This document shows positions 20,687-64,000 of a DNA stretch of 64,000 nucleotides, one piece after another (position 1 is the stretch's first letter; each line of letters opens with the position of its first letter). The notes below the pieces were generated by a model. It was not told the origin of the DNA. It did not search any database and saw only the letters and a program-made list of their open reading frames with translations. The stretch comes from Phoronis australis. Lineage: Eukaryota > Animalia > Phoronida. The position numbers were made by a program, and so were the translations under genes. The DNA lies in the NCBI GenBank assembly GCA_002633005.1, contig NMRA01000055.1:434001-498000 (forward strand). Reading direction: 5' to 3'.

Positions 20687-23499
20687 CTGAAAAAGCAAGT
20701 GAAACATGTAACAATGGCAAAGCGTTCATGTTCGCACTCACGCAGATTNCCTCTGACCTCGAGAAGAACTGAAAGTTTGTTATTTCTTCAGTCCAAGTTC
20801 ATAAACTTCCGCTCACGTCATGACCGGAAATATTATGACACCAATCTGAAGAAATAACGAACTGCCAGTTCTTTATAAATATTACATCTACTGAATATTC
20901 GAAACTAAATTTATAATGGCAAGTGATCAACATAGAAACTTGGTTCTTGGGCAGAAAGCGCAAATTAGTTGCAACTTCAACTATTCCTAGAAAATAAAAA
21001 ATTGTCACTGAAAAACAAGCCATGACTAAAGATTATAGTTGTGCCCAATAGAAGATACGTCCTGTCAACTTAGCTTATGCAACAAATGCTCCATTGGATG
21101 AACGTGGAAACCCACAATAAAATACCGCAAAATGAGATACGAAAGTTGGATCTATTTATTTGTTTACTTATTTAATATCGACTGACCACACTAGCGGTAA
21201 TTAAATACAGCACAACTAGTGTGAAAAATTAACATTAAACAAAAGCGAATAGATATACTAAGACACGAATTAAAAGTAAGAATGGTAAAGAAGACTAAGG
21301 TACAAGAAAAAAATGAAAAATAAACTAAAAGCGATAATCAATGTAAGGATGATACGAAAAAAGCAATTCTTCAAACAAAAGGAATCATGTGTTTGCAGTT
21401 ATACTGCAGTGCATAACGAATCTCAGAAGAAAACTTGGCACAAAAAATAGTTATCGACGACAACTTGAAATAAATTTGAGTAAGAAATAATCTTCTTTCA
21501 TTCTGACCGGAAATTGTCTAAGCTACCCAATCAACACAGCTCAAATACACAAGAACACAGATCAACTCATTGACTCACAAACACGGCCCGTCAGACCCGC
21601 TCTCACAAAACACGGCTCACGCACCCTAGCAACACAGATCACTGACTGAAACATAACGCACCGTGCGCAGGAGCTGCAGCACAAACGTGTTTGCGATTCA
21701 GTGCCTGCATGGTTGCATGAAACAATCCCCAGTTGGCGAATGACCTCCATTTTGTCTTTATCATGGGCTACTCTTTTACGTTAATTTCTAATAATATATT
21801 TGAAAAATGAGCCTTTATTTCAATGAAAATGAATGGGAACTTAGTCTTTAAATTAGGGACGTTGCACGAAAAGGCCCCTATTCAACACAGAACTAGTATT
21901 GTCGGTGTATCTCAAAGCAAATGAAGACAAATTGGTGTTTTGTAAGTTCAATGAGTATTTGTACAAGTCCACAAATGCGGTGGATATGGTTGAGTCCCTA
22001 TTTAGGACGGCTTCGTGCTGTAGTATTGATTGCACACACAGACCCACTGGGTGAGGGGCGGGAACAACCCCAGGTTTTCAGGCAAAAATATGGAAATTCG
22101 GGAAACAAGAAAAGTTCGGACAGCGCAGAGTCCAATGAATAATACGGGGAATAGTTCAGAAGCCGTATCGACAGTAAAATGCATAAAACAGACAACAGAC
22201 AATAGAGTGTGTCGAAGTAGGTAAAATTTCCAGTTGCCCAAGAATGTCGTGCAACATTTTTGTCAAGTTCTACAGCATCAATACACGCAACTCAAACAAT
22301 CAAAAATGTGAAAAATGACAACCATCCAATAGCACAGACGAAGGTTTGAGTTGGAAAGCTAAAGAGCAATGTTTGTGAATAATACCCGATAGTGTCATAA
22401 TGGCAAAATTGTCGATATTTTCGCCTGAGGAATCACAAGGGTAGTATTTTTGAAGGTCGCTTGAAGGTCGTTATTAGGAAACCACTACTTCTAAAATGCG
22501 AAGTTTTTCTGAGAAACTAGCTGTGTATATTAAACTGTCAGACGTGATTTTTTTAGAATTATTTGTGAGAAGTTTTATCGACGGATTTCAATGTCATCGA
22601 AGTATTGACGGTCACGAACGAAACTTTCTACGTTTTTTCCTTGTTTTTTTAAATACAGGTTTGGCGCTAAAACCGTAATAGGCTACATCTGGAAATCACT
22701 AGAATTCATGTAACTAAACACGACTTCTGGAAATTTTTCGGGAAGTGTCCAAAAGCCCCATGAGATTAGGGATAACTCAAAGCCCATGAGGCCTCCCGGG
22801 TCTCATGCTCACGGCCTCACACTTGCGAGCACGCCGTTTAGAAACGTAGAAAGATTTTTCATTGAAGAATGCGGCTATAAATCAAATTTTGCACCTCAAC
22901 ATGTAAACAATGGCATGTTTCAGGTGACTCAACGCATGTCAAGGGTTCACTATTTGTTTACATGTTTGTGCGTCTAAGGAGAATCAACTAAAAGTCCTTA
23001 TTCATACATAATTTTTGCCAACTATACATAAATTCGTAATAAATATGTTTCAATGAATGTTGATGCAGATTGAATTTTCACTGTTCCCCCAAAGATCAAA
23101 TTTAATACATGACTTTTGGTGGGGTGTTAACCACAGTTCTCCAACGGGAAGTGTTCGCGTATCCTAAAAAATGTTTTGCTGTGTCCGGAGGGGTCACTCA
23201 GTTCGCTTGTGGGTGACTCTATGAGAATTAAAGCAATGTTTCGGTGCATGTTGACTGAAGTATGTTGACGAAATTCGGGTAAAACTTTAGGCTATCATAC
23301 GCCCACCTCTCCCAATCGGCAAAGTTCAGAGACACCTATGGGTGCGGTTTGTAAGGCTAAGACGTGTTTGTGATTGCGGGGCCTTGGTTCTGAATCATTG
23401 TTCTGAGCGGTGTTCATAAGTGCGGAGCCACATTGTGAGGTCGGATACTCTGCCTATATTATAAATCCGCTTTCCATCAAAAAGATAACTAAGTTTTAA

Positions 23500-23682
23500 C
23501 AGTGGCGTATTTAGGAGGGGGGGGGGGGGNNNNNNNNNNNNNNNNNGGGGCAAGGGACCATGCCCCCTAAAATTCTTCCAGTAATTTTCATTTGTCAGAT
23601 CGGGGTCGAATGTCTGACATCCAAAATCCTGGCTAATACTCTGCCCTGGCCCCACCTAACTCGAGATCTTGAATCCGCCGCA
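23500..23682 (-). mobile_element. hAT-like MITE (same family as 60542-60861)
   Basis: cagtggcgtatttagg... and ...aatccgccgc termini; similar in reverse to 60542-60861; contains an N gap at 23530-23546. Confidence 0.5.
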
Positions 23683-25943
23683 GTTTAGATCATTCATTGC
23701 ACTGAAACTATTCTCAAGTTGTTCCTTACGCTGATGAGGAGTGATTTCCGGGTTTTGCAAAAACTGACAGTTCGTTATTCTTTAATTGGAAAGATTACCA
23801 TGTCGGCGATATAGAATGACACGCCATGAGATGGCAACTTGTGGTACCTGGTCCAATGCAATAACGAACTGTTAGTATTATGAATGTTCTGAAATCGCCT
23901 CTAAAGTGAACTAAGGAACAATTTGAAAACAATTTCATAACGATGACTGACATCTACCAAAGTTTTTCTGTCACGTAAGGCGAGAGTAGACGGTTTAAAA
24001 ACCTTCTTCAATTAGAATTTTGTCCACAGTAAGATATTTACTTCAAATAGCAGGGGAGTCCCAGTGTTGTAAAAATCTTGTGTAAAATCAAATTTAAAAG
24101 TCACAACAGAGAAAAAAGAAAACAACCAGTAAAGACGAGAAGGCTGACTGGAACATCTACTCGTGGCACCGGCAATCCGAAGCCAGATAATGCCTCCGAC
24201 CAAACTCGGTTTCATTGATGTCACGGGCAAGGTTCAATGCAATGTCCAACATCAGGCACTCAGGCTTACGGAGGTCCCCAATTTTTCGGTAGATCTGTGA
24301 CGTTAGCCAAATTTTATTGGGAATATGATAAGAATTTTTTTCAAGTGTAAAAACAAAATCGTTTGGTTTTTTTCAAGTGTAAAAACAAAATCGATATTTT
24401 TGTACCAGCAGTGGTTTCCGACTCTGACATAAGTTTATTCGACAGCGATGAGATAAATAGTTCATTGTTCGACTGAATCTAAGTTCACGTTGATTGCAGC
24501 GACACCTTTTGCGTAAATACGATACAACAACGCAAATCAGACATACTCCATAAACCAATGGCTAAGAAGTGCCTAGTGCTAACAGAGATTTGAAATTTCC
24601 GTGGAAGGTTAGGCATAAATTCAGCTACAAAACCGTGCCGGGTGTTAAAAAACTGAGTCTAGCTTTTGACATCCATTGAGCACACTCGCAAAACTGACAC
24701 TAAGTGACGTCACGGAACTAATACATCCTTCCATTGATTCCCAGGTGTCAGACAAATATGTCACGTCAACAGACTAATAGACGATGTTTTCTAATAATAA
24801 TAGACATGGATGTCAAATTTTGTTGTGAGATGATTAAATTACGTCACGTAATCAGAGTAATTGACGATTTTTTCTAATTATAATACACACGGATGTCAAA
24901 TTTTGTCCGCGTGAAATCATCAAAACCTATTATGTAACGAACTTACTTTCGCGGAACAAGTGGACCCTCCAGAAAATTTAACATTTCTCAATAATGTTTG
25001 GTTATCATATATTGTACTATGCGTTGAATTTGCTTTAATTGCCTATCGTGGATTTCAATCCACACATTTTTTATACTGCTCATGTCAACACAACCCACTA
25101 TGCTGAAATTTGAAAACTCAGCACGGGAACAGTAATTTTTATTTCATCTATAATCCAGGGAGATCTTCACTAATTAGAATTAACTTCGAAGTATTTTAAG
25201 GAAAGATGTCGGCACGCGTTGTACAAAAACGAAGCTGGCGCTATATAAATGGGGGTGCGTGCTATTAGAAGTTATATAAAAATGCCTGGTTGATTCAAGA
25301 CTGCCTTGAAGACTACTACGACGGAACAACACAAAATCAGTCTTAGTAGAATGACAGTCATAAAATCGGGCATGCATTAACTTCACAGCATCAGCAAAGG
25401 CCACTGCTCGTTGTTTTTTCCAAGAAACAATCCAAGGGCAGTCGACGATTGCACCAGGTGAAAAGACAGACTATTTTTTAAGGAATAGCTGGATACATTT
25501 GCCGTACGTGCGCCGACAACAATAACGACCTCTATGTGCTGCTAATTAGAAACGTGATAGCGAGTTCAAGAACAGTGCCGTTAGTTTACAAAAATAGTTA
25601 GAGGGGTTCCATACCGTGCCCATGAATTTAAACGGCAATCAAACCACGTTCCGAGAAACTAAATTTTGGCTTAGATAACTTACTACTATGATAAAATTGA
25701 TCTTAACTTGTTTCTTATTCAGAAGAGGGAAGCAAGTTTTGGTCGTGTAAACATCTGGCACATGGTCATTGCTATACACCATGCACCATGCACAGAATGT
25801 CCGTTTCGTGAAAAGTGACTAAAGACTCAAGTCAGAAACTTGGTCTTATACTCCACACAACTATGTCTGAAAAATACTAAAAATCATGCTTGAGCAAAAG
25901 TGCATGTCTCTGAGAATAACCATATAGCAGCTACTTACATCGA

Positions 25944-26132: not shown

Positions 26133-27918
26133 TTTTATAACTGAAGTCACTCTCACAAAACACAACCCTGATCTCAAGCAAAAACAAAATGTCAGTTCTT
26201 TCGAAGACCTGCAGTCATAGACATTTTGGTAAAGGAACAATTTGAGACTAATTCCATAACAGCAAGTTGCAGAAATCAGATAAAAAAATTGTCATGGAAG
26301 GCAGGTTTATAGCCACGGTAAATGCTACAATCAGCTTTTTTACACCCCAATGTAGTTGGCCAAAAGCATCAAGGATTTTCGAACAGTCACCAAAAAGACG
26401 CATTGGTTCAATAAAGGTTTTAATAATAATTAAAGAGCAATAAACATATTTTAACATGATACATTTCATTGGGTATCCTAAATAACATCATCAACACATT
26501 AACAAGTGGCAAAAATTGGCATAAAATACAATGACGACCAAATCTGGACATTTATGTCAGAAACATTATAAAAACATCAACATAAAATAATTGACCGCTG
26601 CCTGAGTTAAAAAGTAACATTACAATATCACTCAACAACATCACTATCAAAAATCTCTAGTTTAAGTGTTGCCACTAGAAAATACCAATCAATGATGTCC
26701 TACCTCTGCGAGGCATCAACATTATGAAACTTTAAATTCAAAACAGAAATTTCTTACACATACACTTAATGATTATAATATTTGTTGAGGTATTTCTCAC
26801 AGCCATCAAAAATAAATTACAAGCAATAAATAAAGATTGTCACAAAATTCACCAAATCTTATTCAAACATTGTTAATATTGACTACAATAGTAACCGAAG
26901 GTCATGTAAATTTCAAACTAAGGCAGTTCACAAAGAAACACCGACAAACAGTCAAATGAAACCAATTAAATGAACAAGCCTTCTGATATTTTCAACTTAC
27001 GGCTTATTTTATCTCGTTACTTTTTTCTTAACAGACAAAGGTCTATGGACGAATTTCCAAAAGTTTTCATTCAATTAATTGTTGCAATCAAGGGAATGTG
27101 AATTATTTTAAAAGTCGCCTTACTACAACAAAGGACTAAAGGACAAAATTTGTCATATTATGCATGTGATTGAGGTACACAGAAATCGGCTTTAGGTCAG
27201 CACAAATATCACAAAAAACAGTGCTTGCAGAGATCATTCGCCTTTGTAATGTGTAATGTATCACATTGATTGAAGGTTATGTAGGCTCCAAGAAAATGTC
27301 CAAATTAGCTTATTGCAAAAGATCATACATTAATAACAAATGGTCACCTGACCCTGCTAATGGCAAATTGGTGAAAAGTTGAAAACAAAATTCTATAGGC
27401 TTTCTAGTTTCGTAAAATACATACTTTTACAGAGTTAAAATCTGTTATTTTGAAGACATTTAGTTAAATACAAAGACTTGTTGATACAGTCCTGCGTAAC
27501 CTTGAGAAAGAAGTAACACTGGGCATTACAATAATACTTAGTCACTATAGACCACGTTCTGGGGTTAGAAACATCAAGTTTCTCCGTGCGTGTATTTGCT
27601 CCACCAAAACCTTCTTTTTGCATTCTACACTTGACATTGTGGTGATTTGTATGCCATGGTTTACATGTGATAATTCTGCACAAGCCATGCTGTTCTAAAA
27701 CAGTATGGCAACTGTTTACAGTTTTAGCACCAATAACTTGCAATTACTAAAGGAAACACTGCACCTTTTAACAGCTCTTGTTAGATTTTGTTCCATTTAC
27801 TTTAATCCAGAGGAATTTTAAGCACCATTTTAGTATTTAGACAGTTTTAAAATACAGACAACTCACAATATTTTGCACATGACAATGTTAGAACAAACCA
27901 TATAACTGAACACGTCCA

Positions 27919-28092
27919 TTAATCTTCATGTTTGCTCAATTGGAAGACAGCCACAGCGCCACCTAGCCTGGCTCCAGGTCGCGAGCTGTGACTGGCTGTG
28001 ACGGTGAGAAAAGAAAATCTTTCAGATGGCACCACAGTTACGGCTGTACCGAACCTCGCGCCATCCTCACCAAACTCCAGCACAAGATCAGC
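27919..28092 (-). CDS. GPLD1: GPLD1 exon 20 (stop codon)
   Basis: ADLVLEFGEDGARFGTAV...SSRPGARLGGAVAVFQLSKHED*; compare human SSRFGSS...RSSLGARLSGALHVY. Confidence 0.92.
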   Translation of the reverse strand, partial: ADLVLEFGEDGARFGTAVTVVPSERFSFLTVTASHSSRPGARLGGAVAVFQLSKHED

Positions 28093-31000
28093 CTGAAACA
28101 AGCAACAATCTTTAGAGAACACCTTCTTTGGTCACTTAATCTAGGCGCAAATGCATAGAAATGCGCTCAGCTTGCTGTCTCAAGTATATGCTAGCTAAAC
28201 ACAAAAGTCGATGAGGGTTATCTGCAAAAAATGAGACAATACGGTAATGGCCTCTAAACTACATTGAAGGTTGTAGTAATCAGTGCAAATTCAGTACACA
28301 AGGTTATCATGAGTGAGATCGGTTGTCATCAGGTGATGCAATGATTAATTTCCATTGGCTACCGAAGGTAACCGCCTAAGCACTTGGCTCACCTCAACTG
28401 CATTCTATGAGGATTTAGGCTCGCCAGGCGAAAAGAAATCGAGCAAGTGAGATACTCGCTTCATCACCTCACGAGGCAAAAACTTCAAGGTTCATTTTGG
28501 CATTTTAGAAGCATGTTCTTCTGTCGGCAATTGGCCATATTAAGTATCTGAGTCTCCAAATGTGAACATGAACAACTTATTGAGATTTTTCTTGACATTT
28601 TTCGAGGCCTAGCTAAACTTCCATTGAAGCGCAAATTCAAGCATAGTTTAAACAAAATCTTACTAACATAAATGCAGATTACACATGAAAAACTGATTCC
28701 AGAACTTTCCATGACAGTGTTGGCTGAACTAGTGACGGCAGCGAGAAATGTTTCTGACGCTTAAAAAAATTTACTGATCAATTAAGACAGAGACGATGTT
28801 CTTAAGATACCATCTATTTCCTGGACATTTTGCTGGCCTTTTAACCAGAATTCCACAAATTTTCCGGAAAGCTCACAAAATTTCAGACCTTTTCCAGACT
28901 GTAGCGACTATAACCAGTCAACTGGATTCAGCATTGTACTAAAAATGGTTCCATTTGAAATGATTAGAGTGAAATATTACATAGGCTGACATTGACTGCC
29001 TTCTACTTGAAGAATGTAAAACTTGTTGCAAATCCCAGTTAAGTACATCACATAGTTAGTTGGGATTTTGAAGAACTGTCATCATGAATTGAAGACACAC
29101 CAGAGCACAGATCGACAACAAGTTCTGGAAATCAGTAAGTTGTTATTGTCCCAACTTACCACGTGGGCGGGGCAAGGCTGTATGAACTCTTTGTCACATC
29201 TATCAAATGTTGCATTGTAAATTGGAAAAAATCTGTCCTGAGTGATGTTGGAATGAAGATAGACATAGGCAATACCTTGTTCAGCTGAAAAAAAAACATA
29301 CAGAGTACACACCAGTCCAGGCTGCTTTTAGACTTAAGAAGAGCATCTGACAATATCAATCGTAGCACAAGTTATGCATTGCAGAAAATGCATTCCAGCA
29401 TTACTGTAAAGTCTCACCAACTTAGGACACAATATGACTGAAATGAAATCTTAAAATTTTACTTTTCTGCACGAAGCATAAGTACCACCAAACTTAAATG
29501 CTTTGCCATGTTCAAATTTTGTACCACAGTCACCATAAGACAAAGTTGAAAAAATTGTCACAGCAACAATTAATTGGTGACATTTTTGTACTGCATTACA
29601 CATACAAACAGAAACATAATGTGAGTAGCCATTTTCATTACAAAGATTATAGAAAAATGAGTTGGGCTCATAAATTAAGCAAAACAGTGGACAGTCATTT
29701 GATCTTCTAGTTACTAGTATGATTGTAATTTCCAGATAGACCAGCAAAACATGTAATTGTGCAGACACATACCTCCACTTATCTCCTCTGTAGGGTCCAC
29801 TGTTCTAAATGGAGAGGTGACTATAAGATCATCAAGGCCTTCATCCAGGAGATCTGTAAACTAAGTGCAAATGAACACTGGTTAGAGAGTACATTTGCGT
29901 TTAGGCCAGTGTAGTGAGGTGTATCAAACCCAGGGGCATGTTCCAAGAAACTGGCTAAGTTCAGTTTTGACTTAAGTCTAAGATTTGTGTCAACTTCCAA
30001 ACTTTGAAACTTCCACATCCAGTAAGTTAGTCAAACTTAAGTAAAACACTGAAGTCAAACGGAACGGATTTAAGACAAATTGAAGTTGAGTGTCTTAAAA
30101 TTGACTTAAATTTGAGATTTGTCTTAGCCAAGTCAATTTTCTTGGAATGGGCCACAGACAAATAAATCTATACCCTTAAAACTTAAGACATTAAAAATAA
30201 AATGTTTAAAATAACAGTGTCCAAAATTCCAGTCTAGTGCACAAGTGGAACTTTTATTTTGTTAAATTTCCCAACAGAAAAAAGATTAAGAAAATTTCAT
30301 ACTATTATAAATTTGATGTGTACTGTGTAGATGTCATAAAACAACAGTTGATGAAGTTTACATAATTTGAAGAAAAGTAATCAAAAAGTTTGAAAAATAA
30401 AAACATGGCAATTTTAACAATTAGTTTTGTAAAGAATTGTCTTAAGTCTTAAGGTACTAATTCAAACCACATACTGTAACAGTATTCGCCGTAATAACCG
30501 CCCATGCCCCTATAAGCGCCCCCACGCGTTTTCAGACTTTGCTGAAATAAGCGCCCAGTCCATGAACGTGTACATGGCTTTGCGAACAATGACGTACCTT
30601 CAGTCCTAAAACTCGGCTACAGTAACGTCTTCAATTTATCAAAAAAGTTTTGCATGGGTCTTCTAGACCACCCGCGGCACTGCTACGTTTGTATTTAGCC
30701 GTGACTATACACTTCAAAGTAACACAGCGCTTCAAAAAGAACGCAACAGCGTTGCTACTTTCGCGACGACCGTGTCTCACTATGGTCTGACCTTTCAGTA
30801 GACACATCGACTGTCTCATGAATAAAAATAACTCGGTGTTGAACGCACGTGGCCAGAAAGCGCGCGCTACATATAGGAACCTAGCTGTCATCAAAGACAT
30901 TAGTCGGGAACTATCCATGATATTCATGAAACGGGTAGCATAGCATCGGTAAGAAATGAATATTGGCCCTAATTTCCGACAATTTCTAATACTATAAAAC

Positions 31001-34000
31001 ATGTTTGCGTTATTTTTTAGATGGATTGTTTGATTAAACATAATGGGCAATCTAACTAGCTAGATGTGTCTAAAGAAATTTGCACAAGCAGTAGGCCTAA
31101 ACCAGAGCATGTTTCATTCAGCACTTGCCGGTCTCGTGCTAAAAACATTCAACATTTGTTTTGGTAAGGCCCATATTATGCCGCCCATATTAGTCGCGGT
31201 GTAGCTGGATGCGTACGTAACTGTCTGACAGTTATTTTTCGATGTAAGGGTGTGTAAGCATTCACTGTCAGTTGTCATTTTATCGGATTTGCGTGAGTCG
31301 AAACTATTTTTATTCAAGCATTGAAGTCGCCATATCGAAGACGGCGATTTTGAGGCAGTCAGTCGGCGAGTTTTCGCCCTGGGATTTCAGCACAATTTTC
31401 TGTAAAATGATCGTAATTTAGCAGCAAAGTTTGATAGCAATGCACCACAGCTTTGTTGGAAGTCTTTCATAGATTACAGATACGTCACAGAATGTAAATT
31501 TGATGAATCTTAGCTTCCGATTTCACCCGTTTCGGAGACTGGGTTTCAACCGCCTTGGGTTATAATAAGCGCCCCCCCTGAACCGAACTTTTCTAAGCGC
31601 CCTGGGCGGTTATTACGGCGAATACGGTAGCAGAATGCAGTGACACCTATTGGAGAAGCTGGCACCAAATACTTTTGTTGAAGAAACCAGATTAATTGAA
31701 ACAGCTACCAGTTTGACGATCTTAATAAAAGCATTAGAGTTCACATGAATTTTGATCAACTGCGATTTGCATATTAACCTTTTTGATGTCAAGATTCATA
31801 AAATTGTTAACGTATGGTGAGGACTACATCTGGTCTCAATATCAGCCATTATTTACCGAAAACAGCATTAAATCCATGCTTACTGTCAAAAAGCAAGTTC
31901 CGGCAGTTCTTCCTGGATCCAGACGTCACTTCTAAACTGAGTCAGGGAAAAGATAAGACCAATTTCATTATGCTAATTGGCGTACATGACAGAAGCATGG
32001 GTTTACTGCTGCTTTAAAAGCTTGGTAAACTCTCATTCTTACCAGAACTTTACTGCCAAATCGGTCGAAGAGCCGGTCACCATAAAACATGACCGACCTG
32101 TACTGGACATTCCTCAGCAAAACCGACACGTTGTAGACAGAGACGCCACCTACCTGCGGCAAGTAGGTTTTATATCCTTCCACCAAGCCAATGGTGCCTA
32201 AAGAATTTTACATGACTTGCTTAACAAACAGTGACATTTCGTTCTAACAAAAACAAAATAACTACCAAACGGATAATTAATTAGGCAGAAAAACATCATT
32301 TTCTCAAAAATTCATTTGTAGCTTCAGGGAGAGGAACAATTACTTGGACATGTCTCTGAATTGCAGCTCCCATCCTCCAAACCCCGATTCTGAATCACCA
32401 AGCATCAAGACGCAGTTCAAACTTCAAGACCACTTCCTTAAACTCCACACACACACTGCAAAGCTCCATGCCCAGTCACCTAACTTCAGTACCAACCCAT
32501 GGGTGCATGGCTGGAGTTTGGTTTGTTCACTGCGCAGACGTTTTTTGCATGTGAAGAGTTTACGGATGTGGCTAAGGAATTTGAACCACGCGTCTGATTT
32601 TGTGCTGGTAAAAGATTAGGTTTAGAGGATTGAAGCTGGAATATAGAGGCGCGGCTATGGAATCGTTTCTACTCCCTGAGCTTGGCAGCTATGTTTTGTC
32701 ACGGATCCCTTTAGTACTGGATTCCTGGCATTACAAATTTGAAAACTACACAAGGATTTTTACCTGAAGGAATCTACATAAAAATCCACATTTCAGATTC
32801 GATTGTGTTTCTTTTTAATAGTGAAATGCCAGGAGAGACCCAGTTTACTGTTTGACAAACCCAACAACAAAAAATAAACATCTGACCACAGACTCCAAAT
32901 CTGAGGGACATTCAATTTCTGAAACTCCATTAAAAGGTTTCACAGTAAAAATGTAAATTTTTACTTTTACTGAATAATTTGAACAATTGTATCCGTCATA
33001 GTCCAAACAAATGTTATCACCCTGTTTTAAAAGCATTCAATGTGAAAATTTTTATACAGCTATTTTCTCATAAATGTATAGTGACGACATAATGGAATGC
33101 GCTTAATCACTAGATGGCAGTAGAGTACTTGGTGGACAACGTTCAGCGCCACCTACAGTTCACGCCTGTGATTTCTATGCAGATTTAACAAGGTACTGGG
33201 ATTTTACAGCGTTTTTTTATAAATTCTCTACAATCAACATGCCAAATGATTCATGTTTTGTTTTTGTCAACTGGCGCCATCTTGTTGACCAGAACTAGAA
33301 TTTGCTTCAAGCAAAAAGTCGCTTTTCCTGCTAGAAAGTTATATGTCAGATGTTTGCAATTCACACGAGTCTCAAGACATTTCATTAAATAACTTACTGA
33401 GCCCAGTTTGAGCAATCGCCAACATGTCTGTATACTTCTCGTAAGGGGTACCGATGGAAAAGCTAGATCCTAGGTTCTCGAATTCCGTTTTGCCAACAAA
33501 AACGTGCCTGGGTTTACGAGAGGGCAAGAGTTGGTCGTAGACGAAAAACTTTCCAGTTCTCTGAACATCATCTTGAGAAAAGCTGCAGTTTGCCCTAAAC
33601 ATGCAAAAGGAATTGACAGACACAGATGATCAAATGCATGGTGGTGGGTAATCCACTCACAGCATGTCGCAACCACTGCAAGCTATCACTTAGGAAACGA
33701 CCGCTGCATACAACTAACCAGATTGTGTACACAGGACACAAATATTTGCAGAATTTGCCCTTTTTTAATCTTTCAAAGGCTTCTAACTTTTTTGTGAATG
33801 CCACAATTTTTCAAAATAATGTCTGATGGTTGCCTGTATCCAAACCTTATCAAGGTGTTAATTTGGTATTACATATCTTTCATGGAAAAAATTACAAAAT
33901 AAAATGGCACCTGTCGGCCATATTGAGTCCCGAATTGGTGAGATTTTATCATAAGTGGTGTTTAAGATAGAGCATATATAGTTTGACTAAGGAGATTACT

Positions 34001-49834: not shown

Positions 49835-49836
<2 letters not shown>

Positions 49837-49883
<47 letters not shown>

Positions 49884-50168: not shown

Positions 50169-50744
50169 CCATGCAGTGCTCTTATCGTATTTTATGTTAG
50201 GCGCGACGTTCAGCTAAGACCAGAAAGTGGTCGGAGACCATTGTGTTCTTGATTGTTTTTTGGATCATAGGTAATAATATCCGTAAAAATAGTAAAAGCC
50301 AGTCCCCAATGGACACTACAATAAATGATGTGACAATGGAGATTAAACATTTTACAAACTAACACTTAATTAGTCGCAACCGATATGATAATTTATTCAG
50401 AAATTGAGCATCGAGGCTGTCAAATAAGAACGTGATGGGCGACAACGATCATATCCTTTAATGACGTCGCCTTCATCACGTTTTTTGTTGTACTCTGAAA
50501 AATATATGAATTACATATCTCTTTAATAAAGTTTTACAGCTGTTGTTTGAAGGACGTGTAGATATGTTGATGTGTTAGGGGCCAGAGGCGTACATGTACA
50601 AACGCTAAACTCTTGTCGATTAGTCGCCAGCATGTATAATTATAAGACGTGCTTTTCTGCCTCTCTCGACGTGAGCATCTGCGGCCATTGCATGTCAATG
50701 TGGGCAGCACTTGATCTTTATTCATGCTTCAAAATGATTATGCG

Positions 50745-50892
50745 GGCCTGCGTTCCGTAGACCCAAAAACTCGCGAAAACGCAAGATCCGACACAAATCT
50801 TCGCGAGATATCGTCATGTATTACAAGCACAGAATGTGATCACATTGCATTTTCTTGCGAGTGTCTTTGGTCTACGGAACGCAACGCAGGCC
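50745..50892. mobile_element. Short hairpin MITE
   Basis: ggcctgcgttccgtagacc...ggtctacggaacgcaacgcaggcc. Confidence 0.6.
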
Positions 50893-51006
50893 AATGAGAC
50901 TGGCATGAAGACGCTGGGATATAACTGCAATGACGTCGAAACAGTGCAAACGACACAGAAATAATTGAAACAACCATTGTACCTTTTATTTAGTTACAGC
51001 TTCAAG

Positions 51007-51019
51007 ATGATAGCTCCAT
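51007..51019 (+). CDS. TP53I13: TP53I13-like probable first coding micro-exon (whole exon 51000-51019)
   Basis: tttagttacag|CTTCAAG ATG ATA GCT CCA T|gtaagt. The phase-1 donor fits the phase-1 acceptor at 55466 and completes a signal peptide. Confidence 0.6.
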
Positions 51020-54000: not shown

Positions 54001-54231
54001 TTTAGCTCAAAATGACATGAAAAAAGGTTGCATTCGCCTTTAAGTATGGACTATCATTAATTCCCTATGTTACGTGAGTTTGATGGGCCTGCGAGATGAT
54101 GAGTAATTAAAATAAAATGAAATGTCGAGTTATCTGCTATTTGTATAGTCACGAATTGTTGAGATAGGACGCATTTCGGAAGGAGCCTTTCGAAGACCGC
54201 CACGAGATCGTGCTTTCCTTTCCTGTATAAA

Positions 54232-54269
<38 letters not shown>

Positions 54270-57200
54270 TGAGTGCGAGTGCGTGCACGCGTTTGTGTAT
54301 TAGCACTTCCTCCGTTTTGTCACAAAACATTGACCTTTAAGTTCTTTAACATCAGAATAAAGTCTAGCCCAAGTGTTGGTGTTGTTAGTGCGATATACCT
54401 TGTCTATTAGAGCTTTACTGAAAACCACCCTGTAAATAAAGGATGTGAAGCTATGAAAGCCAGTGTACAGTCCTCAGTGTGTAGATCTTCTTATGAAACA
54501 CGTGATGCTACCACTGAGGTACCCTTACGCTCATCTAACAAGTCCAAAATGTCAATATGTTATCAACCTCTAATTCTGTAATGAATTTCAAGTTAGGATG
54601 CCTCGTGTTTAAGTATACCAAAAATTCCTGTGCTGACTGCTGATGTTCAAATATACAAAATATATCATCCACAAATCGTCGATAGAAATAGTCTCAACAG
54701 GCAACTGGCACGTACACCACGTACAGATTGTCATTGTTAGTTTAGTCTATTGTTACTGTCCTGTAATTGACTGTGTCTGTTGTTGCGCCTAGCAAGGTGG
54801 CTGAGGATGATGATGCAATTGAATTGCTGGTGTCTCAAGGGATAGGACATACTATACGACAGCCTCTGTTTCGGGTGGCATCCTTACTAGGTTCTCCGTG
54901 TGCGATATCACGGAGTATAGTGACTAAGACCGGTTACGTCCATCCCTACTCAGGGGGTCTTTTGTCAATGTATTGTTTGCAGCATGTTTGGAGAGAACCC
55001 TCTGGTGTTGGACTATTTTACAACGCGTGACTGCTCTTTTGTTTGAGATTTGCTTTTATCTTTTGTTCTTCCAATGATAATTATCCTGTCGTTTGTGTTA
55101 TTTGATTGGTGGATTATGGACTAACTGAAACAAATATGTCTCCGAATAATGTTCATTTCCGGGTGGGCTCATGAAATAAATATTTCTCCGAATAATGTTG
55201 ATTTCTGGGTGGGCTCATGGGAAAGTGGGGTCTTGTGATCGTCAACATCATTCGTCCCGTGCTTGACCCTGTCGTGTGCTGTCCTGTAAATCGTTCTTGT
55301 GATGGATTCCCGTATATCCTACACATGTTGCCAGAAGCCCTCGAATTTCGGTCTGCCAAGTCTGTAAATTCACTCCGTTAGTCCTCAAACTTAAGTGAAC
55401 CATACGGCACACTGAATCAATCAAAGGGTAAACGTTAACTACGACTTGTGTTGTGTACATTCTAGCAATACTTTTCATCCTGCTGGTGTCATCGCTCGCC
55501 GTTATCTACACCCATTGTCATAGTTTGAGCGACGTTAAGCATATTCGTTCTGGTATTGCTGTGCCTGGTTGCGACACAGGAAAGGTGAGTAACACATGAG
55601 GTTGATATTGTTATCTCGTAAGATAGAAAAGAAACCTTTTTAACTTCCGGTGCCACGCCAAGCACATATGATGACGTCAGCATTAAAACACATCACTTCA
55701 GGCGTGCGTTCAGTAGACGCTAGGACCTACGCTAGGACCTAGCTAAAGCCTAGTCAAAGTCACGTGTTCTCATTTAAAATGCACGGCAATATCTCACGTA
55801 ATCTCGAGCAGTCTTGCTTTTTAGCGAGGTCCTAGTGTTACTGAACGGGAGGCGGGTCTAGAGGCACTTCCGGTTACACACATATAATGTCTTCCGGTTT
55901 AATAATGACGTCACTTTGATCAATCGTCCGAATGATCGATGACGTCGCTTTCGGGTCTATTTAACCTACTTAACGTTGACCCTTGACCTCCATTTCACAT
56001 GTGATTTTTGTTTTATCTCCCTTCTGTTCGTACGGCATGTGAACGATGTGTAATGATAATGAACTATTGCAAAACAAGCAAAATAGTTAGACTATTAATA
56101 TTTTGTGAAACAGACAAACACAAATAGTTAGACTATTAATATTTTGTGAAACAGACAAACACAAATAGTTAGACTATTAATATTTTGTGAAACAGAAAAG
56201 TACCAACTTCACGTCTTTGCACATTCACAAGTCATAATGGATGTTCATTCTTCTGTGTTTGGCAGTTAACACTTTGTTGCTGGTGAATAAATCAGCTTAA
56301 CGTGGTTATTATGCCAGACGTAACTAGGTGCCACCAAGATATAAACGCATTTTTGATTTAAAACGTTAAAATTCAAACCAAAGCAACAACACAAGTCTGT
56401 TTACGATGTTCACGAATGAAGGTGTACCAAAAATGTACTCACACTTCGAATAATAATTTGATTGCTTATTTACGTAATTCATAAAGCGAAATTTGTTAAT
56501 CCAAAGTAAATGCTTCGTTTAATAATTTGTGAAGAAGATTTATAATGTTTGTACTTCCGTGACGTACTTTTCAGTTTCCGTGATAAAATTTCTTTCTCTC
56601 AAATCGAGTGTTTTTTTCCATTCCCGTGCATACAGAGCACGTGCTTACAGTCACAATAAGCAATAGTCGTACAGAAGGCCCCTGGCGCACAGTCAGATCC
56701 GCGAGAACCTAGTTTGAAGTCTCAGTGTGGCAGTGAAGTATTTGAGACACCCTGTATATACCATACACAACGTATTTCCTACAGAGTAATTTTTCATACA
56801 TTTTAGGATAATCTGACTAAAGATTTCGACCCATCCTGGGAAATAGAGTACAAGTGTTTGGGAGAAAGGTTCAAACCTAACAGTCCGGTAGGTATCCCTG
56901 AAATAGAAGTTGCAGTGCGTAGTCAGCCAGTTGGGACTGCAAAGTTTACAAAGTGGCACTGACGGCTTAACACTGGAAACAAACCTTATTAATTTTTAGC
57001 ATGTTGGCAAATACCAACGATGACAAAATAATTTGAATCTTTGAAACAATGCTTTATGACCAGTCTCAATCCTACATGGCTCAGGAAACACGTTATGTAA
57101 AGCTGCTCAGAGTCCGTTGAATGGGCAAAACTGACTAATGATAAGTGCGGAAAGATTGGACCGCATAAATTATTTTGTAATAGAAAGTTACATTACCTAT

Positions 57201-60200
57201 GGAAAGGCATGCCTTCGTTCATATTTGCAGAATCACTGAGAGGCCTTCGAAGTCACAGCACCGTTAGGACTACCAGGCTCGAAATCACCGCTATGATTTA
57301 AGAAAATTTAAGATAAATCCCATGACGAGATCTCAATATCACTCCTGAACATTCAAAATCGTTTGGTCTCCGAAATTTCACATTTGTAAACAATTCATTA
57401 ATTTAACCAGTAAATCAGGACTTAATTGTTACTTAACTCTTTTACAGGCAAAAGCAGTTTCAATTTGTCAGCCGCGACTGGAAGAGGTATGAGTTGCTTA
57501 ATTCAAACTATCGTTGTTTGAAATAGATTTTCATATATTTATTTCAAGTATAAAGTTAAAAGTACTTCAGGATGTTTCGGGATCTTCAGTCTTGAGGGTC
57601 TACTATAACGTCAGGATGGTTAGATATTGTCGTCGGCCAGAGGTGCAGACGGTAAGATCTTTGTAAAGCTTACGCAAGTGGTATTGAATTCCAAAAGCTA
57701 CCGTCACACCTATTCGGAATTTGCAAGAATTCAGCATAACTGTCCCGAATAAATTTCGTTTTTCAAAATTCGAGCTATTTTCCTGCTGACTCTTCAAATC
57801 GGAGTATATTCTTATTGGTTTGTAATACTGCCGTTCGACTACATTGCGCTAAACGAATGATTCGTGAGTATTTACGGTGTATTTAACTATCGAATGCACT
57901 TCATACAGAGTTGGAAAACGGTACAATTATATAGGATGTAGTAAAAATGTTCTAATGACTACCAAAAGAATGCACTTCGAATGCTATGGGAAAGCGGCCT
58001 GATTGTTGCCCGAGTGCCAGTCGAAGGCTAGTTGTAAGGCGTCGTGAATTCTGCTCCCTGTCACTCAAGGTGTACTGGAAAGGCTTCTGGAGAAGCTTTC
58101 TGATATATTACGAGAGAAAAACATCAATAAACGAAGAATGGCTAGCAAGACGAGAGAAGAAGGTAGCACGGACATTACAGCAGACTTATGGAGAGTCTCA
58201 GAATCTTTTTTCACATATCTAAGAAGAGACCCTACAATTTCTGCTGAGTTAGTGCCAAGGGTAGGACCAAGGATAAAGAAACAGGATACTGCTACACAGA
58301 CACTACCTCAAGTCATTTCTTTGAGATTCCTGGCTCCAAGAGACAAGTATCTCACTCATATGTGAAACTTTTGCGTGGCACGGAACTCTATCAGCCTCAT
58401 CATCCATGACGTCAGCCAAGCTGTTATTGAAGAGTACAAGGATGGGACTACTACCTTCATCAGTACTCTAGAGGAACGGGAACTCGTTGAGGAGGTCTTC
58501 AAAAACAGATGGAGCGTTTACCATTCCGTGGGGCTCTAGATATAACACATATGACCACCAGGAAACCTGCCAAGAACTGGTCCTCGTGCTACAACTACAA
58601 CGTCATATCCACTGTGGTGCTGATAGTCCTTGTTGATTGAAACTAAACCGAGTTTGTAGATGGTGCTCAGATATCAAAAACTGTCTGTGTTGATGTGAAC
58701 ATTGGATTTCATGAGCCACAACCTACTTCCCAATATGAAGGTACATCAGCAGCCGGTCGCGCTTTTATGTGATGCATTGGTCTTTACACTAATCCCGGAC
58801 TCAGTATTTGAAGGCCATCAGAACGCTCCGATAGCATAAAAACTTATTAGACAATCGTACACCAAACCAATCCGCACGAACCACTGAATTATACGTACGA
58901 ACCACATTCTAATCTTTGATATTGATTATACCGCTGAAGATCGGTAGATAGTGATGATTCGTTGATCGCGCGGACGATTTGTGTTTGCAAATACGCATCA
59001 ACGGATTTGTGGGGGTAACTGGGTAGAATTGTGGATGTTCAGCCTCCGTGTCTATAGGTAGAATATGCGTATTGTTCAATGTACGTGTGTATGATTGCTT
59101 AGTAACCTCGAACTTGGTTACGGACTAACACTGTCTGCTCCTCGGTTGACATTGTTAAACCGAATATCGATATTTTCTTAACGTTTACTTCTTTCTTCCA
59201 GATAATGCATGTTTGCATGGAGTATGAAATATTTTATGCAGAAATGCCGCCATTAAGGTAACTTGGATCAAAATTTTTTTTCAACACTTTTCAGTCCGTG
59301 ACCACACCACTAAACTTTATTTGAGACTCGACCAGATAACTTCGTGAAACGCGCGCCACTCTTCAAGTACATTTTTTTAATTTCACGCGCTATGCCTAGA
59401 TTTCGACTAGTCATGTCAGCACTGTTTAAGGCAATAATAAAACTGCTTTGTTGATGGAGGTTATGTTGTTTATAATCATCCAAAAATGCCTACTTTAGTT
59501 TATACCCTCTTTCAGAGATAAGTCGAAGTAAGTGCTCACTTTTAAGATTCCTTAAAGTCAAAATGCATGAAAACTACTATACTCTAACGGACACGTTTTC
59601 ATTTTAATTGTTTTGCCAAACAATGATGTCTTTTATGTCTCGAATTAGTAATAGTATTATAACATTTTCATACGCTTACGCATTCGCGTTCACTAGCTTT
59701 TCGGACTATTTATAGCGGACCTCACCGCCATGTTTGGCCCGAGTTCGGCGAATACTCGTACCTACCGCCCCAACGCTGGGTACACGGAATAGAGGTAAGA
59801 AGCGATGATCTGTTCTTATCCTGATGCAGTTTTCAACGACAAATGTGCAACTTGAAACCCAAAAGCGCTAGGGTTGTGGAAATAATAGTAATACCATTTG
59901 CCATGTCTTGAAAGTCATCCACGCTACTTCCAAGAAACTTTCTGGAAATGTTAGGTGTGGTAAAATGCACATGTAAATGTTCAACGTCGAGTGCATTTTT
60001 ATTATTTATCACTCATTCGTGTAAGACCTTTTGGTCATATCAAATGTTTGTAACTATAGTCATCGCACATAAAATAATGCCAGCTCTTAGCCAGATAGTC
60101 AATAGAAAGTTAATTAACAAAAACAAGACGCTGTGCTTCGTATTACGACGTTTCGACATTACTTCCCATCACAGTGCATAATACATTAATGGACATCCAA

Positions 60201-62774
60201 CCTCTATCACTGCTCTAGCTTGTATGTCCCAATAATGGATTGTTGAACTGCCTCGTCTTCGTATATATGCTATAGCATCAGTGTAGTGACTGTATTACTT
60301 ACACCTGATGATGATATTCAGAAATATTGAAACGTCGTAATATGAAGCCCAACGTCTTGTTTTTTTGTTATTTAGCTATCTATAAATATTTATCAGTTTG
60401 ACTAAAAAGGTAATTCAAGTTGATTTCATGAGGTCATGATAATTATTTTGAGTAAAATATCTGTTGTCGTTGGTTCGAAATGCGCGAGATATGTTCAATC
60501 ATTACCTGATGTAGTGCACAACGCTCAGTTTGCATCACAACCAGGGGCGGATCCAGGATTTTGAGTTAGAGGGGGGGCAGGGCACAGGAATAACCAGAAT
60601 TTGGGCAGATGCGCGCGCCCAGTCTAAAATGTGGGGATGCTGGGGTCTAGAATATTTGGGTTTGCGGACCTGTTGACTAAAAAAAGGTGAACGGGGCTTG
60701 TTAAGGGCCTATGCATTGATTATTCACCCCCCCCCTGAGCCCCCCTGGATGCGCGCATGTGCTCTAGTCAGCAATTCGCACCCGAAATCCCAAATGGTAT
60801 CTGGTAGAATTTTAGGGTGGGGTGCAGGCATGGCCCCCTTTCCCCCCTAAATCCGCCACTGATAACCCAGTAGAATTGTTTTTCTTGATACCAGCCCGAC
60901 ATGAAATGCCACAAATTAATTAAGTGATTTCTCACGTGAATCTAGAGAAAGGTGGGCGGAGGAAGTGACGTAACACGCCAGGGGTCTGTTTCATGAAAAT
61001 GGCCTGAAGAGTTAAGACCGAAATTTGGTCTTACACTTCACACAATTACTTTTGATGAAAAAGTTAAAATCTTACTTGTGTTCAAGTCCAAAGTCTCTGA
61101 GACCATACACATTAATTACTAGTTACCGAGATAATTTCTATAAACTATTTCTAGACTCTGATACACTCATAATTATTTGGCTAAACCTTTTTCAGCAAGT
61201 GTGTAGTGAAAGCATAAGACCAAATTCCAGTCTTAAGTTTTAATCACTTTCATGGAAAAGACCCCTAGCTGTGCCCTGTTGCATGAAACAGTCCCAAATA
61301 GGGACTCAACTAAGTTCCCTAAATCTTTTTCGTATTTGTTTCGTTCTTTAGGCACAGATGAAGTATTTTTTTCTATCAGTTTATGTTCGTTATAAGCTCT
61401 TCTTTGACTAATGGCATTTTTAATTATAACTTATAACTAAGCCCTTAATTCAGTCAAGACAATTTGGGACTTACTCCTTAAATTAGGGGCGCTGCATGGA
61501 AAAATCCCGTCTTACTTTCAATAATATTGAGAATACAATGTAGAGTTCACTCTCGATTTGTATCAAAGCCAAAAATCAACTTAGTAATGAGACTCAAACA
61601 ACATAACAAAGGTAAAGACCACAAAATTCGTCAATCGTAAAGGCCCTTTTGCGGAAATATCCCTCCATGAAAGCAACATATTTTCCACAATTCTGCGAAC
61701 GAGTTGAAATTTCGGTCAAACTTGTGCAAACCACAAGCACATGCTTTTACAGACAAAGAGCGCGTTTCTGTGTATTAAATTTATTCGAAAGCAACACACA
61801 TGTCGACCTCTTACAGATATTGCCGCCACCAACAGTCAGCTTCTCATAGCTTGTTTCAGAGGGTTTTAACAAAATGGCGCCTTTGTTCTATTAGGTCACT
61901 TTCTATATCTACAACTTTACTTCTGTCCACAGCACGGAGCCACAGCCCTTCTCTATCATCCATGCGCCGATCCCGGAGAGGTAGATTCTTTACGCCAGCT
62001 CCTTGTCGGTTGTAAGCGACGCCACATCATCACGCCGTACCGAAACCTCACAAGAGAAAGGGTTATTATGATTATTATGTCACTACAAATACCAATAACC
62101 GTATATTTATGTAAAAATGCAAAAATATTGGTCATGTGATTCTTGTTGTAAAACGTTTTGCTGAGAGTTTTGCTACGTATTTGATAGGTTAAATCTTGCA
62201 CAAATTTCCATAGAATTGCGTCACTGGAACTCTTATAAGCTATCATACCAACGACTGGTGGACGTCTGAGTGACGGACTCCAGAATGTGTTTCAGAATAA
62301 AACGTCATCCAGTGACTGCTGTCACCCTGGTAACTCAGTAAAACTGAATTTGTTTACTTTTACAAACTCACAATCAGCTAAAACAGTCATTATTATCAGT
62401 TGTGATAATTGAACTTCAGTCTGATTGTATGTCTAATTTAGCAGCATCTCTTTTTGCAAACACATATGATTAAACACACGACACGGCGTTGTCTTACACA
62501 AACTCCCCCGTATTCGAGGCAATCTTTTTACCAGTTTGCAACAGACAACACCGCGACATGTTCATTCGGTTTTATTTCAACCTTTTCCCCAATCCTTAAA
62601 ATCAGTACCACTGACATGGCTAAACCGATCACCGAGGCTTGGGGACGGGGCTGGTTGTATTCGTACATGTTTGACAACGCTCAGTCGTTCTTGCAGCCGC
62701 TCGCTTTGGTTTCCTGGGGCTGCAAGTTGGAAATGGGAACCCCGGATTTGGAAATGGCCAAGGATTTTATCAAG
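51007..62774 (+). CDS. TP53I13: TP53I13-like / DUF3105-domain secreted or membrane protein, 3'-partial (8 coding exons seen)
   Basis: Spliced product: MIAPSILFILLVSSLAVIYTHC...PGCDTGK|DNLTKDFDP...YKC|...|IMHVCM...PPLS|GPHRHVWPEFGEYSYLPPQRWVHGIE|HGATALLYHPCA...CKRRHIITPY|PLALVSWGCKLEM. The GxHRxxWxxxGEYxxxPxQRW, EHGxxxxLYHPC and PLALVxWG motifs are characteristic of this family. Confidence 0.88.
52685..52950 (+). pseudogene. Decayed KolX / P2X7-C-terminal-like Cys-rich ORF, 5' part
   Basis: With frameshifts: ...GYMFEPEY...EDRRGDTSRCKCTVCVVMPTSMECC, matching the YxFEP...RxGxTxWCxCxxCxxMPTxxEC pattern. Confidence 0.65.
52955..53774 (-). pseudogene. Decayed THAP-domain transposase 5' half
   Basis: C2CH THAP signature with in-frame stops and a frameshift; KFIVDLSKVLELFIRC...QWECVAGH...VRGMP. 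Confidence 0.78.
54234..54265. repeat. (GT)n microsatellite
   Basis: Read directly from the sequence. Confidence 0.95.
55466..55584 (+). CDS. TP53I13: TP53I13-like exon
   Basis: ttctag|CAATACTT...GGAAAG|gtgagt; ILFILLVSSLAVIYTHCHSLSDVKHIRSGIAVPGCDTGK. Confidence 0.8.
55706..55848. mobile_element. Short hairpin MITE
   Basis: cgttcagtagacgctaggacct ... aggtcctagtgttactgaacg. Confidence 0.5.
56081..56195. repeat. 41-bp tandem repeat, about 2.8 copies
   Basis: aaatagttagactattaatattttgtgaaacagacaaacac. Confidence 0.93.
56807..56887 (+). CDS. TP53I13: TP53I13-like exon
   Basis: ttttag|GATAAT...AGTCCG|gtaggt; DNLTKDFDPSWEIEYKCLGERFKPNSP. Confidence 0.82.
57448..57486 (+). CDS. TP53I13: TP53I13-like small exon
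   Basis: ttttacag|GCAAAA...GAAGAG|gtatga; AKAVSICQPRLEE, 39 nt, phase 0-0. Confidence 0.65.
58130..58790 (+). pseudogene. Decayed PIF/Harbinger (HARBI1-like) DDE transposase
   Basis: Across frameshifts: FFTYLR.DP...ELVPRVGPRIKKQDT...SLRFLA...F.VARNSIS......QAVIEEY...F.NRW...H.VGALD..H...KP......YNY....VVLIVLVD. Confidence 0.82.
59202..59257 (+). CDS. TP53I13: TP53I13-like exon
   Basis: cttccag|ATAATG...TTAAG|gtaact; IMHVCMEYEIFYAEMPPL(S). Confidence 0.88.
59716..59794 (+). CDS. TP53I13: TP53I13-like exon (DUF3105)
   Basis: GPHRHVWPEFGEYSYLPPQRWVHGIE. Confidence 0.92.
60095..60385. mobile_element. Old Penelope-like pLTR remnant (inverted pair) with hammerhead core
   Basis: aacaagacgctgtgcttcgtattacgacgtttcga (about 60122-60156) is inverted at 60327-60361; CTGATGA at 60305 and GAAACGTC at 60329. 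Confidence 0.55.
60542..60861 (+). mobile_element. hAT-like MITE
   Basis: caggggcggatccagga ... cctaaatccgccactg termini; G/C-run rich. Confidence 0.6.
60980..61266. mobile_element. Harbinger-like MITE, with a similar element directly after (about 61270-61510)
   Basis: ggggtctgtttcatgaaa / tttcatggaaaagacccc; inner arms ttaagaccgaaatttggtctta / taagaccaaattccagtcttaa. Confidence 0.6.
61933..62061 (+). CDS. TP53I13: TP53I13-like exon (DUF3105)
   Basis: HGATALLYHPCADPGEVDSLRQLLVGCKRRHIITPYRNLTRER. Confidence 0.92.
62697..62774 (+). CDS. TP53I13: TP53I13-like exon (DUF3105)
   Basis: ttgcag|CCGCTC...ATCAAG|gtaaat; PLALVSWGCKLEMGTPDLEMAKDFIK. Confidence 0.92.
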
Positions 62775-63632: not shown

Positions 63633-63899
63633 CACAAAAAATTTAGTTTTTTTAATTTTTGCATTTATATCTTGATTAAAAGTACACAAATTGAAGAAGA
63701 AATATCATATCAAAATTGTTGGTAAACGAATTCAAATTCTTGTGACCATGTTGTGAAGGGTTTAAACAACACGTGTTTTTAAAACTTTGCATAAATGAAA
63801 GTTGGTGTTTTTTCACAGTTTTGGTGAAAATTTTCTCCCTAGTTCATTACCTTTTGACGTAACACTAAAAAGAAACGTTTTTGTGAAAAATAAACACCT

Positions 63900-64000
63900 C
63901 ATAAAATGTTTCATCATGCCGTCATCACCGTCTGTCAGTCTCCGTTCTCCTTCGACGTCCGCTTGGCGTCTAGTGTCCGCTGAACACCTCGTGAAATTTT
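63900..64000 (-). mobile_element. 3' part of a Helentron/HINE-like element, copy E (runs off the window)
   Basis: Reverse complement of aaaatttcacga...cagcggac...gacggtgatgacggcat, as in copies A-D. Confidence 0.5.

What the first reader, a model, noticed from the sequence alone, without database searches (positions are those of the whole stretch)
20687..64000. Two whole genes, one on the same strand, apparently nested inside a >43 kb INO80 intron
Seen: the most upstream INO80 exon here (20549-20686) has a splice acceptor and encodes a mid-protein segment, so the N-terminal majority of INO80 (DBINO, ATPase lobe 1) must lie at higher coordinates. I found no INO80-like exon from 20687 to 64000. 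That interval instead holds a complete 20-exon GPLD1 on the SAME strand and a TP53I13-like gene on the opposite strand. Known: nested genes are mostly antisense and small. Inference: in this arrangement INO80 transcripts must skip about 20 valid exons and read through the GPLD1 poly(A) site, which implies mutually exclusive expression, special splicing control or chimeric transcripts.
Basis: partly seen in the sequence, partly recalled or inferred. Interest (0 to 1): 0.8.

Follow-up and report, generated by a model that had tools for sequence, protein, structure and literature searches.

The report
Twenty-exon gene inside INO80's intron
In this invertebrate the mRNA of the chromatin-remodelling gene INO80 joins an exon here to an exon absent from the next 43 kb, which instead hold a complete, expressed 20-exon GPLD1 gene facing the same way, so GPLD1 likely sits inside one giant INO80 intron, an unusually intron-rich case of same-strand nesting, unless the assembly is misjoined at one of two gaps.

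Summary
Partly confirmed. Three INO80 exons lie at 20549-20686, 16633-16858 and 76-203 (minus strand). No other INO80 exon is in the window. RNA reads splice the first exon to an upstream, in-frame, INO80-like exon whose end is absent from the window, so the species makes a normal INO80 junction. Between lies an intact 20-exon, 840-aa GPLD1 on the same strand, transcribed in the same three samples. The opposite-strand DUF3105/TP53I13-like gene is not whole here: its last exon was not found before 64000. Nesting itself is not shown. No genome, DNA reads or same-species synteny were available. My odds: true nesting 0.58, misjoin 0.32. Likely mechanism: GPLD1's 19 donors use up its 19 acceptors, so INO80 needs only read-through of a weak ATTAAA poly(A) site. 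No chimera was seen among few reads. Fly Ino80 also hosts genes in its introns. In flies same-strand nested genes are mostly intronless, so a 19-intron case would be an outlier.

The parts
76..203 (-). INO80 exon C (conserved helicase lobe-2 segment)
   Evidence: (E 1e-18)
204..16632 (-). INO80 intron B-C, 16.4 kb (GPLD1 median intron 771 bases); holds the single N at 2116
   Evidence: the B-C junction is inferred from phase and protein colinearity, not seen in reads
16633..16858 (-). INO80 exon B
   Evidence: contig piece 16633-16845; A-B junction in reads
20549..20686 (-). INO80 exon A, spliced at both ends; its upstream partner exon is not in the window
20687..64000 (-). Inferred INO80 intron of more than 43.3 kb; donor outside the window
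   Evidence: inferred; contiguity untested
20749..20749 (.). Single N, probable contig join, 62 bases from exon A's acceptor, beside a hairpin repeat at 20764-20873
23500..23683 (.). Short repeat copy with imperfect terminal inverted repeats; the 17-N gap (23530-23546) lies in its poly-G run
   Evidence: both halves colinear with a sibling copy near 60770-60865
26405..27918 (-). GPLD1 3' UTR; ATTAAA at 26424 is the likely poly(A) signal (end approximate)
   Evidence: stranded depth 5.8-11.3 in bins 26405-27738 and contig pieces 26469-27529; hexamer scan
27919..48538 (-). GPLD1 (GPI-specific phospholipase D), 20 coding exons, 840 aa
49884..50000 (.). 117-N gap inside a (GT)n microsatellite; the T-over-A strand skew ends near here
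55432..62774 (+). DUF3105 (TP53I13-like) gene: 7 exons found, start codon and last exon not found

Best explanation
The INO80 mRNA joins exon A to an exon outside this window, and a complete, expressed 20-exon GPLD1 lies in between on the same strand, so GPLD1 (and probably the DUF3105 gene) is likely nested in one INO80 intron of more than 43 kb. How it would work (inferred): a polymerase from the INO80 promoter copies all of GPLD1. Each GPLD1 acceptor has its own donor 0.2-3 kb upstream, including exon 1's donor, so the 19 inner introns would pair among themselves and leave only INO80's far donor and exon A's acceptor. The bottleneck is then GPLD1's poly(A) site 5.7 kb before exon A, a non-canonical ATTAAA that would be leaky. 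Transcripts that read through give INO80 mRNA; those cut there are lost. If INO80's donor took GPLD1's first acceptor instead, a stop follows after 4 codons, which would send the RNA to nonsense-mediated decay. GPLD1 itself is likely made from its own promoter near 48.6 kb.
For: Shown: 3 reads in X2 and 1 contig in X4 carry the same 30 letters beyond exon A's acceptor. These are absent from the window, are in frame, and resemble the Ser-Pro-Lys-rich linker at this place in 16 aligned INO80 proteins. GPLD1 is intact and transcribed on the same strand in the same runs. INO80 has a 16.4-kb intron nearby against a GPLD1 median of 771 bases. The two single-N joins that can be checked (2116, 44823) lie between exons in the right order and orientation. 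The 17-N gap lies in the poly-G of one repeat copy whose halves align in order with one sibling. Minus-strand T-over-A skew has the same sign on both sides of that gap (+0.105 +/- 0.048 and +0.092 +/- 0.029) as in INO80 intron B-C (+0.057 +/- 0.016). Entry at GPLD1 exon 2 in phase 0 stops after 4 codons. Fly Ino80 carries several genes in its introns (PMC9659042).
Against: The upstream exon was not placed on the genome (no genome held), and no DNA run was listed. Two joins lie between exon A and GPLD1, both at repeats. The skew vanishes beyond 50 kb (-0.018 +/- 0.015 over 50.2-64 kb), which gives no sign of minus-strand transcription there; the proven A-B intron is flat too (-0.015 +/- 0.03). 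In flies 72.5% of same-strand nested genes have one exon, the rest a median of one intron, and such hosts are less often essential (PMC3814207), so the prior for 19 introns in INO80 is low. Nine of 19 GPLD1 acceptors are phase 0 and would give in-frame chimeras. No step of the splicing or read-through mechanism was observed.
Confidence: 0.58

Rival explanations
1. Scaffold misjoin at the single N at 20749 or the 17-N gap: INO80 is an ordinary gene whose 5' part lies elsewhere, and GPLD1 is an unrelated locus joined on by the assembler.
For: Both joins sit at repeats. Reads of other copies pile onto 23607-23656 and near 20775-20879. The assembly is fragmented: notes exist for 62 windows on 57 pieces. 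An intact INO80 mRNA is expected here too. The arrangement is a far outlier among nested genes. There is no minus-strand skew beyond 50 kb.
Against: 2 of 2 checkable single-N joins in the window are right. The repeat at the 17-N gap is only about 180 bases and 72-81% like its sibling, so read pairs would be expected to span it (inference). Skew is continuous across the gap (weak, since it is also expected just downstream of GPLD1).
Confidence: 0.32
2. Only GPLD1 is nested. The 117-N microsatellite gap is the misjoin and the rest of INO80 follows it on another contig, so the DUF3105 gene is not nested. This is a sub-case of the best explanation, and its probability is part of that 0.58.
For: Cumulative minus-strand skew rises from 1 to 50 kb and then turns flat or slightly down. 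Both sides of the gap are plain (GT)n.
Against: GPLD1's own 5' end lies 1.3 kb from the gap and explains the same change point. Opposite-strand transcription of the DUF3105 gene and young transposons would also flatten the skew.
Confidence: 0.1
3. The three exons belong to a recent 5'-truncated duplicate or a rearranged haplotype of INO80, and the transcribed copy lies elsewhere.
For: No genome was available to count INO80 copies.
Against: 8 of 12 reads on exon A are at least 99% alike, the rest 95-99%, and no recurring difference is listed; the contig piece has 0 differences over 135 letters. All three exons are open with intact splice sites.
Confidence: 0.07
4. INO80 is truly split in the genome and its halves are joined by trans-splicing.
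For: The junction exists in RNA while the upstream exon is absent from the window.
Against: Cis-splicing over a long intron, or a misjoin, explains the same data more simply. Such trans-splicing is known for few genes (recalled: Drosophila mod(mdg4), lola).
Confidence: 0.03

Closest known systems
Drosophila Ino80 as a host gene (CG18493, CG3734, CG31244, CG31245; PMC9659042: abstract, passages, sections 2.5 and 3.1, figure legends and supplement part 1 of 2 read)
   Same: Same host gene; a very long intron (intron 8) with other genes 'within its introns'; the host is spliced normally across it (exon 8-9 qPCR).
   Different: The guests named there are not described as GPLD1 or DUF3105 genes. 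Their strand and exon number, and the position of intron 8 in the protein, were not in the text I saw, so a shared intron position is untested.
Same-strand nested protein-coding genes of flies and mammals (PMC3814207 passages; PMC8467205 passages)
   Same: A whole gene inside a host intron on the same strand: 29% of fly pairs, 76 of 296 human and 55 of 248 mouse simple pairs.
   Different: In flies they are 72.5% single-exon, otherwise a median of one intron, often testis-biased, and their hosts are less often essential. Here the guest has 19 introns, spans 22 kb and is conserved across animals.
Host/nested pairs whose nested gene shifts host polyadenylation (two imprinted loci cited in PMC11694760, passages and one section read; H13/Mcts2 and Herc3/Nap1l5 are recalled names)
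   Same: A nested transcription unit and its poly(A) region decide whether the host transcript is finished.
   Different: There the switch is imprinting and the guests are intronless (recalled). Here the guest is multi-exon and no switch has been shown.

Membership tests
Nested (intronic) gene pair | Host exons lie on both sides of the guest on one DNA molecule | not testable with these tools
   No genome, no DNA run listed; the upstream exon end was not found in metagenome contigs (0 stretches)
Nested (intronic) gene pair | The host mRNA splices across the interval | tested here: met
   3 reads and 1 contig join exon A to an in-frame INO80-like exon absent from the window; this is also expected under a misjoin
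Nested (intronic) gene pair | The guest is a whole gene with its own transcript and 3' end (GPLD1) | tested here: met
   840-aa open model; stranded exon and UTR depth ending near 26.4 kb; the 5' end was not covered by reads
Nested (intronic) gene pair | The second guest (DUF3105 gene) lies wholly inside the intron | tested here: inconclusive
   Last exon and start codon not found in the window; expression not tested
Nested (intronic) gene pair | Arrangement conserved in relatives | tested here: inconclusive
   20 GPLD1 and 10 INO80 look-ups shared no species; 0 of 30 metagenome GPLD1 loci carry INO80 or DUF3105 matches, but most are short and of unknown taxa
INO80 ATPase | Colinear match to the lobe-2 insertion and helicase C segment of named INO80 proteins | tested here: met
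GPLD1 (GPI-PLD) | N-terminal Zn_dep_PLPC domain followed by FG-GAP repeats, full length | tested here: met
   PF00882 E 2.5e-8, PF01839 E 2.7e-10; 49% to Lingula GPLD1 over 835 aa
TP53I13-like / DUF3105 | PF11303 domain | tested here: met
   orthology to human TP53I13 not tested
Read-through chimera INO80-GPLD1 | Reads joining exons of the two genes | tested here: inconclusive
   None among the 4 listed records at exon A's acceptor; one search showed only 15 of 96 joints; INO80-donor-to-GPLD1 joins could not be looked for

The most novel reading that the evidence does not exclude
A conserved 19-intron gene sits on the sense strand inside an intron of a core chromatin remodeller, and works as its throttle. 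GPLD1's introns splice out among themselves inside the INO80 pre-mRNA, its weak poly(A) site sets the share of transcripts that reach exon A, and mis-entry at GPLD1 exon 2 is a built-in decay route. GPLD1 activity would thus tune INO80 dose in cis.
Probability: 0.22. Interest if true: 0.75.

Novelty: new variant of a known kind. Interest (0 to 1): 0.45.

Why it matters
Same-strand nested genes are thought to be purged when they carry introns, because they disturb the host's splicing (PMC3814207). A 20-exon, 22-kb conserved gene inside INO80 would be a strong exception. It would give a natural test of how a splice donor waits across 19 foreign acceptors and a working poly(A) site. Together with the fly case it would suggest that INO80's long introns repeatedly take in genes. 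If it is a misjoin, it is only an assembly error to fix.

Tried and rejected
No whole genome is held. No RNA holder was listed by index and no DNA run was offered; three raw RNA runs and one contig set came by species label. The 20-kb read lay was swamped by repeats and showed 15 of 96 joints and 24 of 1,902 loose ends, so GPLD1's own junctions and rare chimeras were not visible. Exon B as a homologue query found nothing. Synteny by accession or contig length failed for lack of a shared species (representatives). Metagenome scans: 0 hits for the upstream exon end; 30 GPLD1 loci, none with INO80 or DUF3105. CpG depletion does not discriminate: o/e 0.47 in intron B-C but 0.89 in the proven A-B intron and about 0.9 in the questioned segments. 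A target-site duplication at the gap repeat could not be read with confidence. Earlier notes held nothing near this place, on INO80, or on look-alikes. Papers: 'INO80 + GPLD1 + nested' 0; 'nested gene + Ino80 + intron' 2, unrelated by their listing; the GPI-PLD search listed 12 of 28, none holding that term. Searches gave only the fly Tel paper and two genome papers. The Lingula genome paper's 3 held supplements had 0 hits for the gene names. For PMC11789643 I saw only the file list, and its data archive is too large to read. PMC3814207's supplement was unavailable; these unseen files may list the fly Ino80 guests or orthologue positions. The bacterial promoter scan is irrelevant. Rejected: missed INO80 exons in 20.7-27.9 kb. 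A possible frameshift at the end of GPLD1 exon 9 was considered; a weak GT donor keeps the frame without it.
Full report
What is in the window. The DNA is animal. Its GPLD1 is closest to that of the brachiopod Lingula among the 10 proteins compared (49%, next 44%), so a lophotrochozoan is likely. Ten full-length INO80 proteins and a 16-protein profile find three INO80 exons on the minus strand: A 20549-20686, B 16633-16858 and C 76-203. They cover about residues 990-1160 of ~1,490. Nothing else among 3,499 stop-to-stop stretches scores better than E 2.6, although the missing 5' part includes the highly conserved ATPase lobe. About two thirds of the protein must be encoded outside the window.

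RNA evidence for INO80. Twelve reads (X1 5, X2 6, X3 1) and one contig (X4, RNA only by guess) lie on exon A. All run off it, and the flanking intron has no depth. At the donor side, 3 reads each in X1 and X2 continue into the start of exon B. At the acceptor side, 3 reads in X2 and the contig continue with the same 30 letters; about two X1 reads reach that edge but fall under the listing limit. These letters have no match in the window at up to 3 mismatches (best 11 of 30). They read in frame with exon A and resemble the Ser-Pro-Lys-rich linker at that place in other INO80 proteins. So the species makes a normal INO80 junction, and the exon directly upstream of A is not in 20687-64000 unless it is hidden in a gap.

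The guests. GPLD1 has 20 coding exons from 48538 to 27919, all introns GT-AG, 840 codons open, with the expected Pfam domains. The exon 9 donor is weak and unverified. Reads of the same orientation as on INO80 cover its 3' UTR (mean depth 5.8-11.3 in bins 26405-27738, near 0 in the other orientation) and the bin of exon 16 (1.6-7.0) in all three raw runs. Exon A has depth about 1-5. Both genes are thus transcribed in the same samples. The UTR ends near 26.4 kb, where the nearest hexamer is ATTAAA at 26424. The + strand gene is a DUF3105 protein with 7 exons from 55432 to 62774. Its last exon was not found before 64000 and its first frame lacks an ATG, so only one of the 'two whole genes' is shown whole.

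Is the DNA contiguous? This is the open point. No genome is held and no DNA run was listed. The gap is in the poly-G run of one ~180-base repeat copy whose halves align in order with one sibling. That is what a true short gap looks like, but a join of two copies would look similar. The two joins that exon order can check (2116, 44823) are right, which is a small sample. Strand skew (T over A on the minus strand, repeats and exons masked, block bootstrap) is +0.057 +/- 0.016 in intron B-C, +0.105 +/- 0.048 and +0.092 +/- 0.029 on the two sides of the 17-N gap, and +0.073 +/- 0.014 in GPLD1 introns. It is -0.018 +/- 0.015 beyond 50.2 kb. This fits continuity up to about 50 kb and gives no support beyond it. 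It is weak either way, since the proven A-B intron is flat (-0.015 +/- 0.03). CpG content does not discriminate. Synteny could not be tested: 20 GPLD1 and 10 INO80 look-ups shared no species, and 0 of 30 metagenome GPLD1 loci carry INO80. My odds are a judgement, not a computation: nesting 0.58, misjoin 0.32, duplicate or rearranged copy 0.07, trans-splicing 0.03.

How it would work (all inferred). An INO80 pre-mRNA would contain GPLD1's 19 donors as well as its 19 acceptors, at a median spacing of 771 bases. Nearest-partner pairing would use them up and leave INO80's far donor for exon A, whose acceptor is as pyrimidine-rich as the best GPLD1 acceptors (14 of 17; GPLD1 7-14). What remains is the poly(A) site 5.7 kb before exon A; a non-canonical hexamer would let part of the transcripts through. 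The upstream INO80 exon ends in phase 0. Joining it to GPLD1 exon 2, the first acceptor met, gives a stop after 4 codons, while 9 of the 19 acceptors would give in-frame fusions, and GPLD1 exon 19 could join exon A in frame. No chimera was seen, but only 4 records were listed at exon A's acceptor, displayed 15 of 96 joints, and joins from the outside donor into GPLD1 could not be looked for.

Comparison with what is known. Nested genes are common, near 10% of fly genes. Of the nested fly genes 71% are antisense; same-strand ones are 72.5% single-exon, otherwise a median of one intron, and hosts of intron-bearing same-strand guests less often have lethal phenotypes (PMC3814207, passages). Human and mouse coding pairs are 74-78% antisense (PMC8467205, passages). 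Across all annotated mammalian pairs the orientations are broadly similar, and nested genes can cause early host polyadenylation (PMC11694760, passages and one section). Drosophila Ino80 itself holds several genes in its introns and is spliced normally across intron 8 (PMC9659042); whether that is the same intron position is unknown. I found no paper on INO80 with GPLD1 nested (open-licence library only). Same-strand cases in this scan's earlier notes were mostly intronless guests (unchecked AI notes). If real, this is a known kind of arrangement in an extreme form: a 19-intron conserved guest in a core chromatin gene.

Verdict. The RNA junction is new support that INO80 is intact and that its next exon is elsewhere, but it cannot tell nesting from a misjoin. 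Interest 0.45; 0.75 if the throttle reading holds.

Noticed in passing
window 204-16632: INO80 intron B-C is 16.4 kb, about 20 times the median GPLD1 intron; I saw no gene in it by eye, and 6 of its longer frames were scanned by Pfam with no convincing hit.
   Followed up: partly
window 55429-55584 (+): The first exon of the DUF3105 gene encodes a signal-peptide-like stretch in a frame that opens with ACG right after a stop and has no ATG: an unfound upstream exon, a non-AUG start or a base error.
   Followed up: partly
window 39055-39010 (-): GPLD1 exon 9 ends at a weak GT donor; a shifted frame just beyond it also looks protein-like, so a one-base error or another donor is possible.
   Followed up: partly
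window 52400-53800 (-): THAP-domain frame (PF05485, E 3.9e-7) with further frames, between the two head-to-head genes; probably a DNA transposon.
   Followed up: partly
window 57900-58900 (+): Decayed frames resembling a PIF/Harbinger transposase (recalled motifs; no Pfam hit) inside an intron of the DUF3105 gene.
   Followed up: partly
window 44675-45466 and 18200-18930: Element with 148-base perfect inverted repeats and a GIY-YIG-like frame (PF20815, E 4e-4); a 98% alike 300-base copy lies in the INO80 A-B intron.
   Followed up: partly
window 48538-55432: GPLD1 and the DUF3105 gene are head to head, 6.9 kb apart; DUF3105 exons are not CpG-depleted (o/e 1.0) while GPLD1 and INO80 exons are (0.59, 0.62).
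   Followed up: partly
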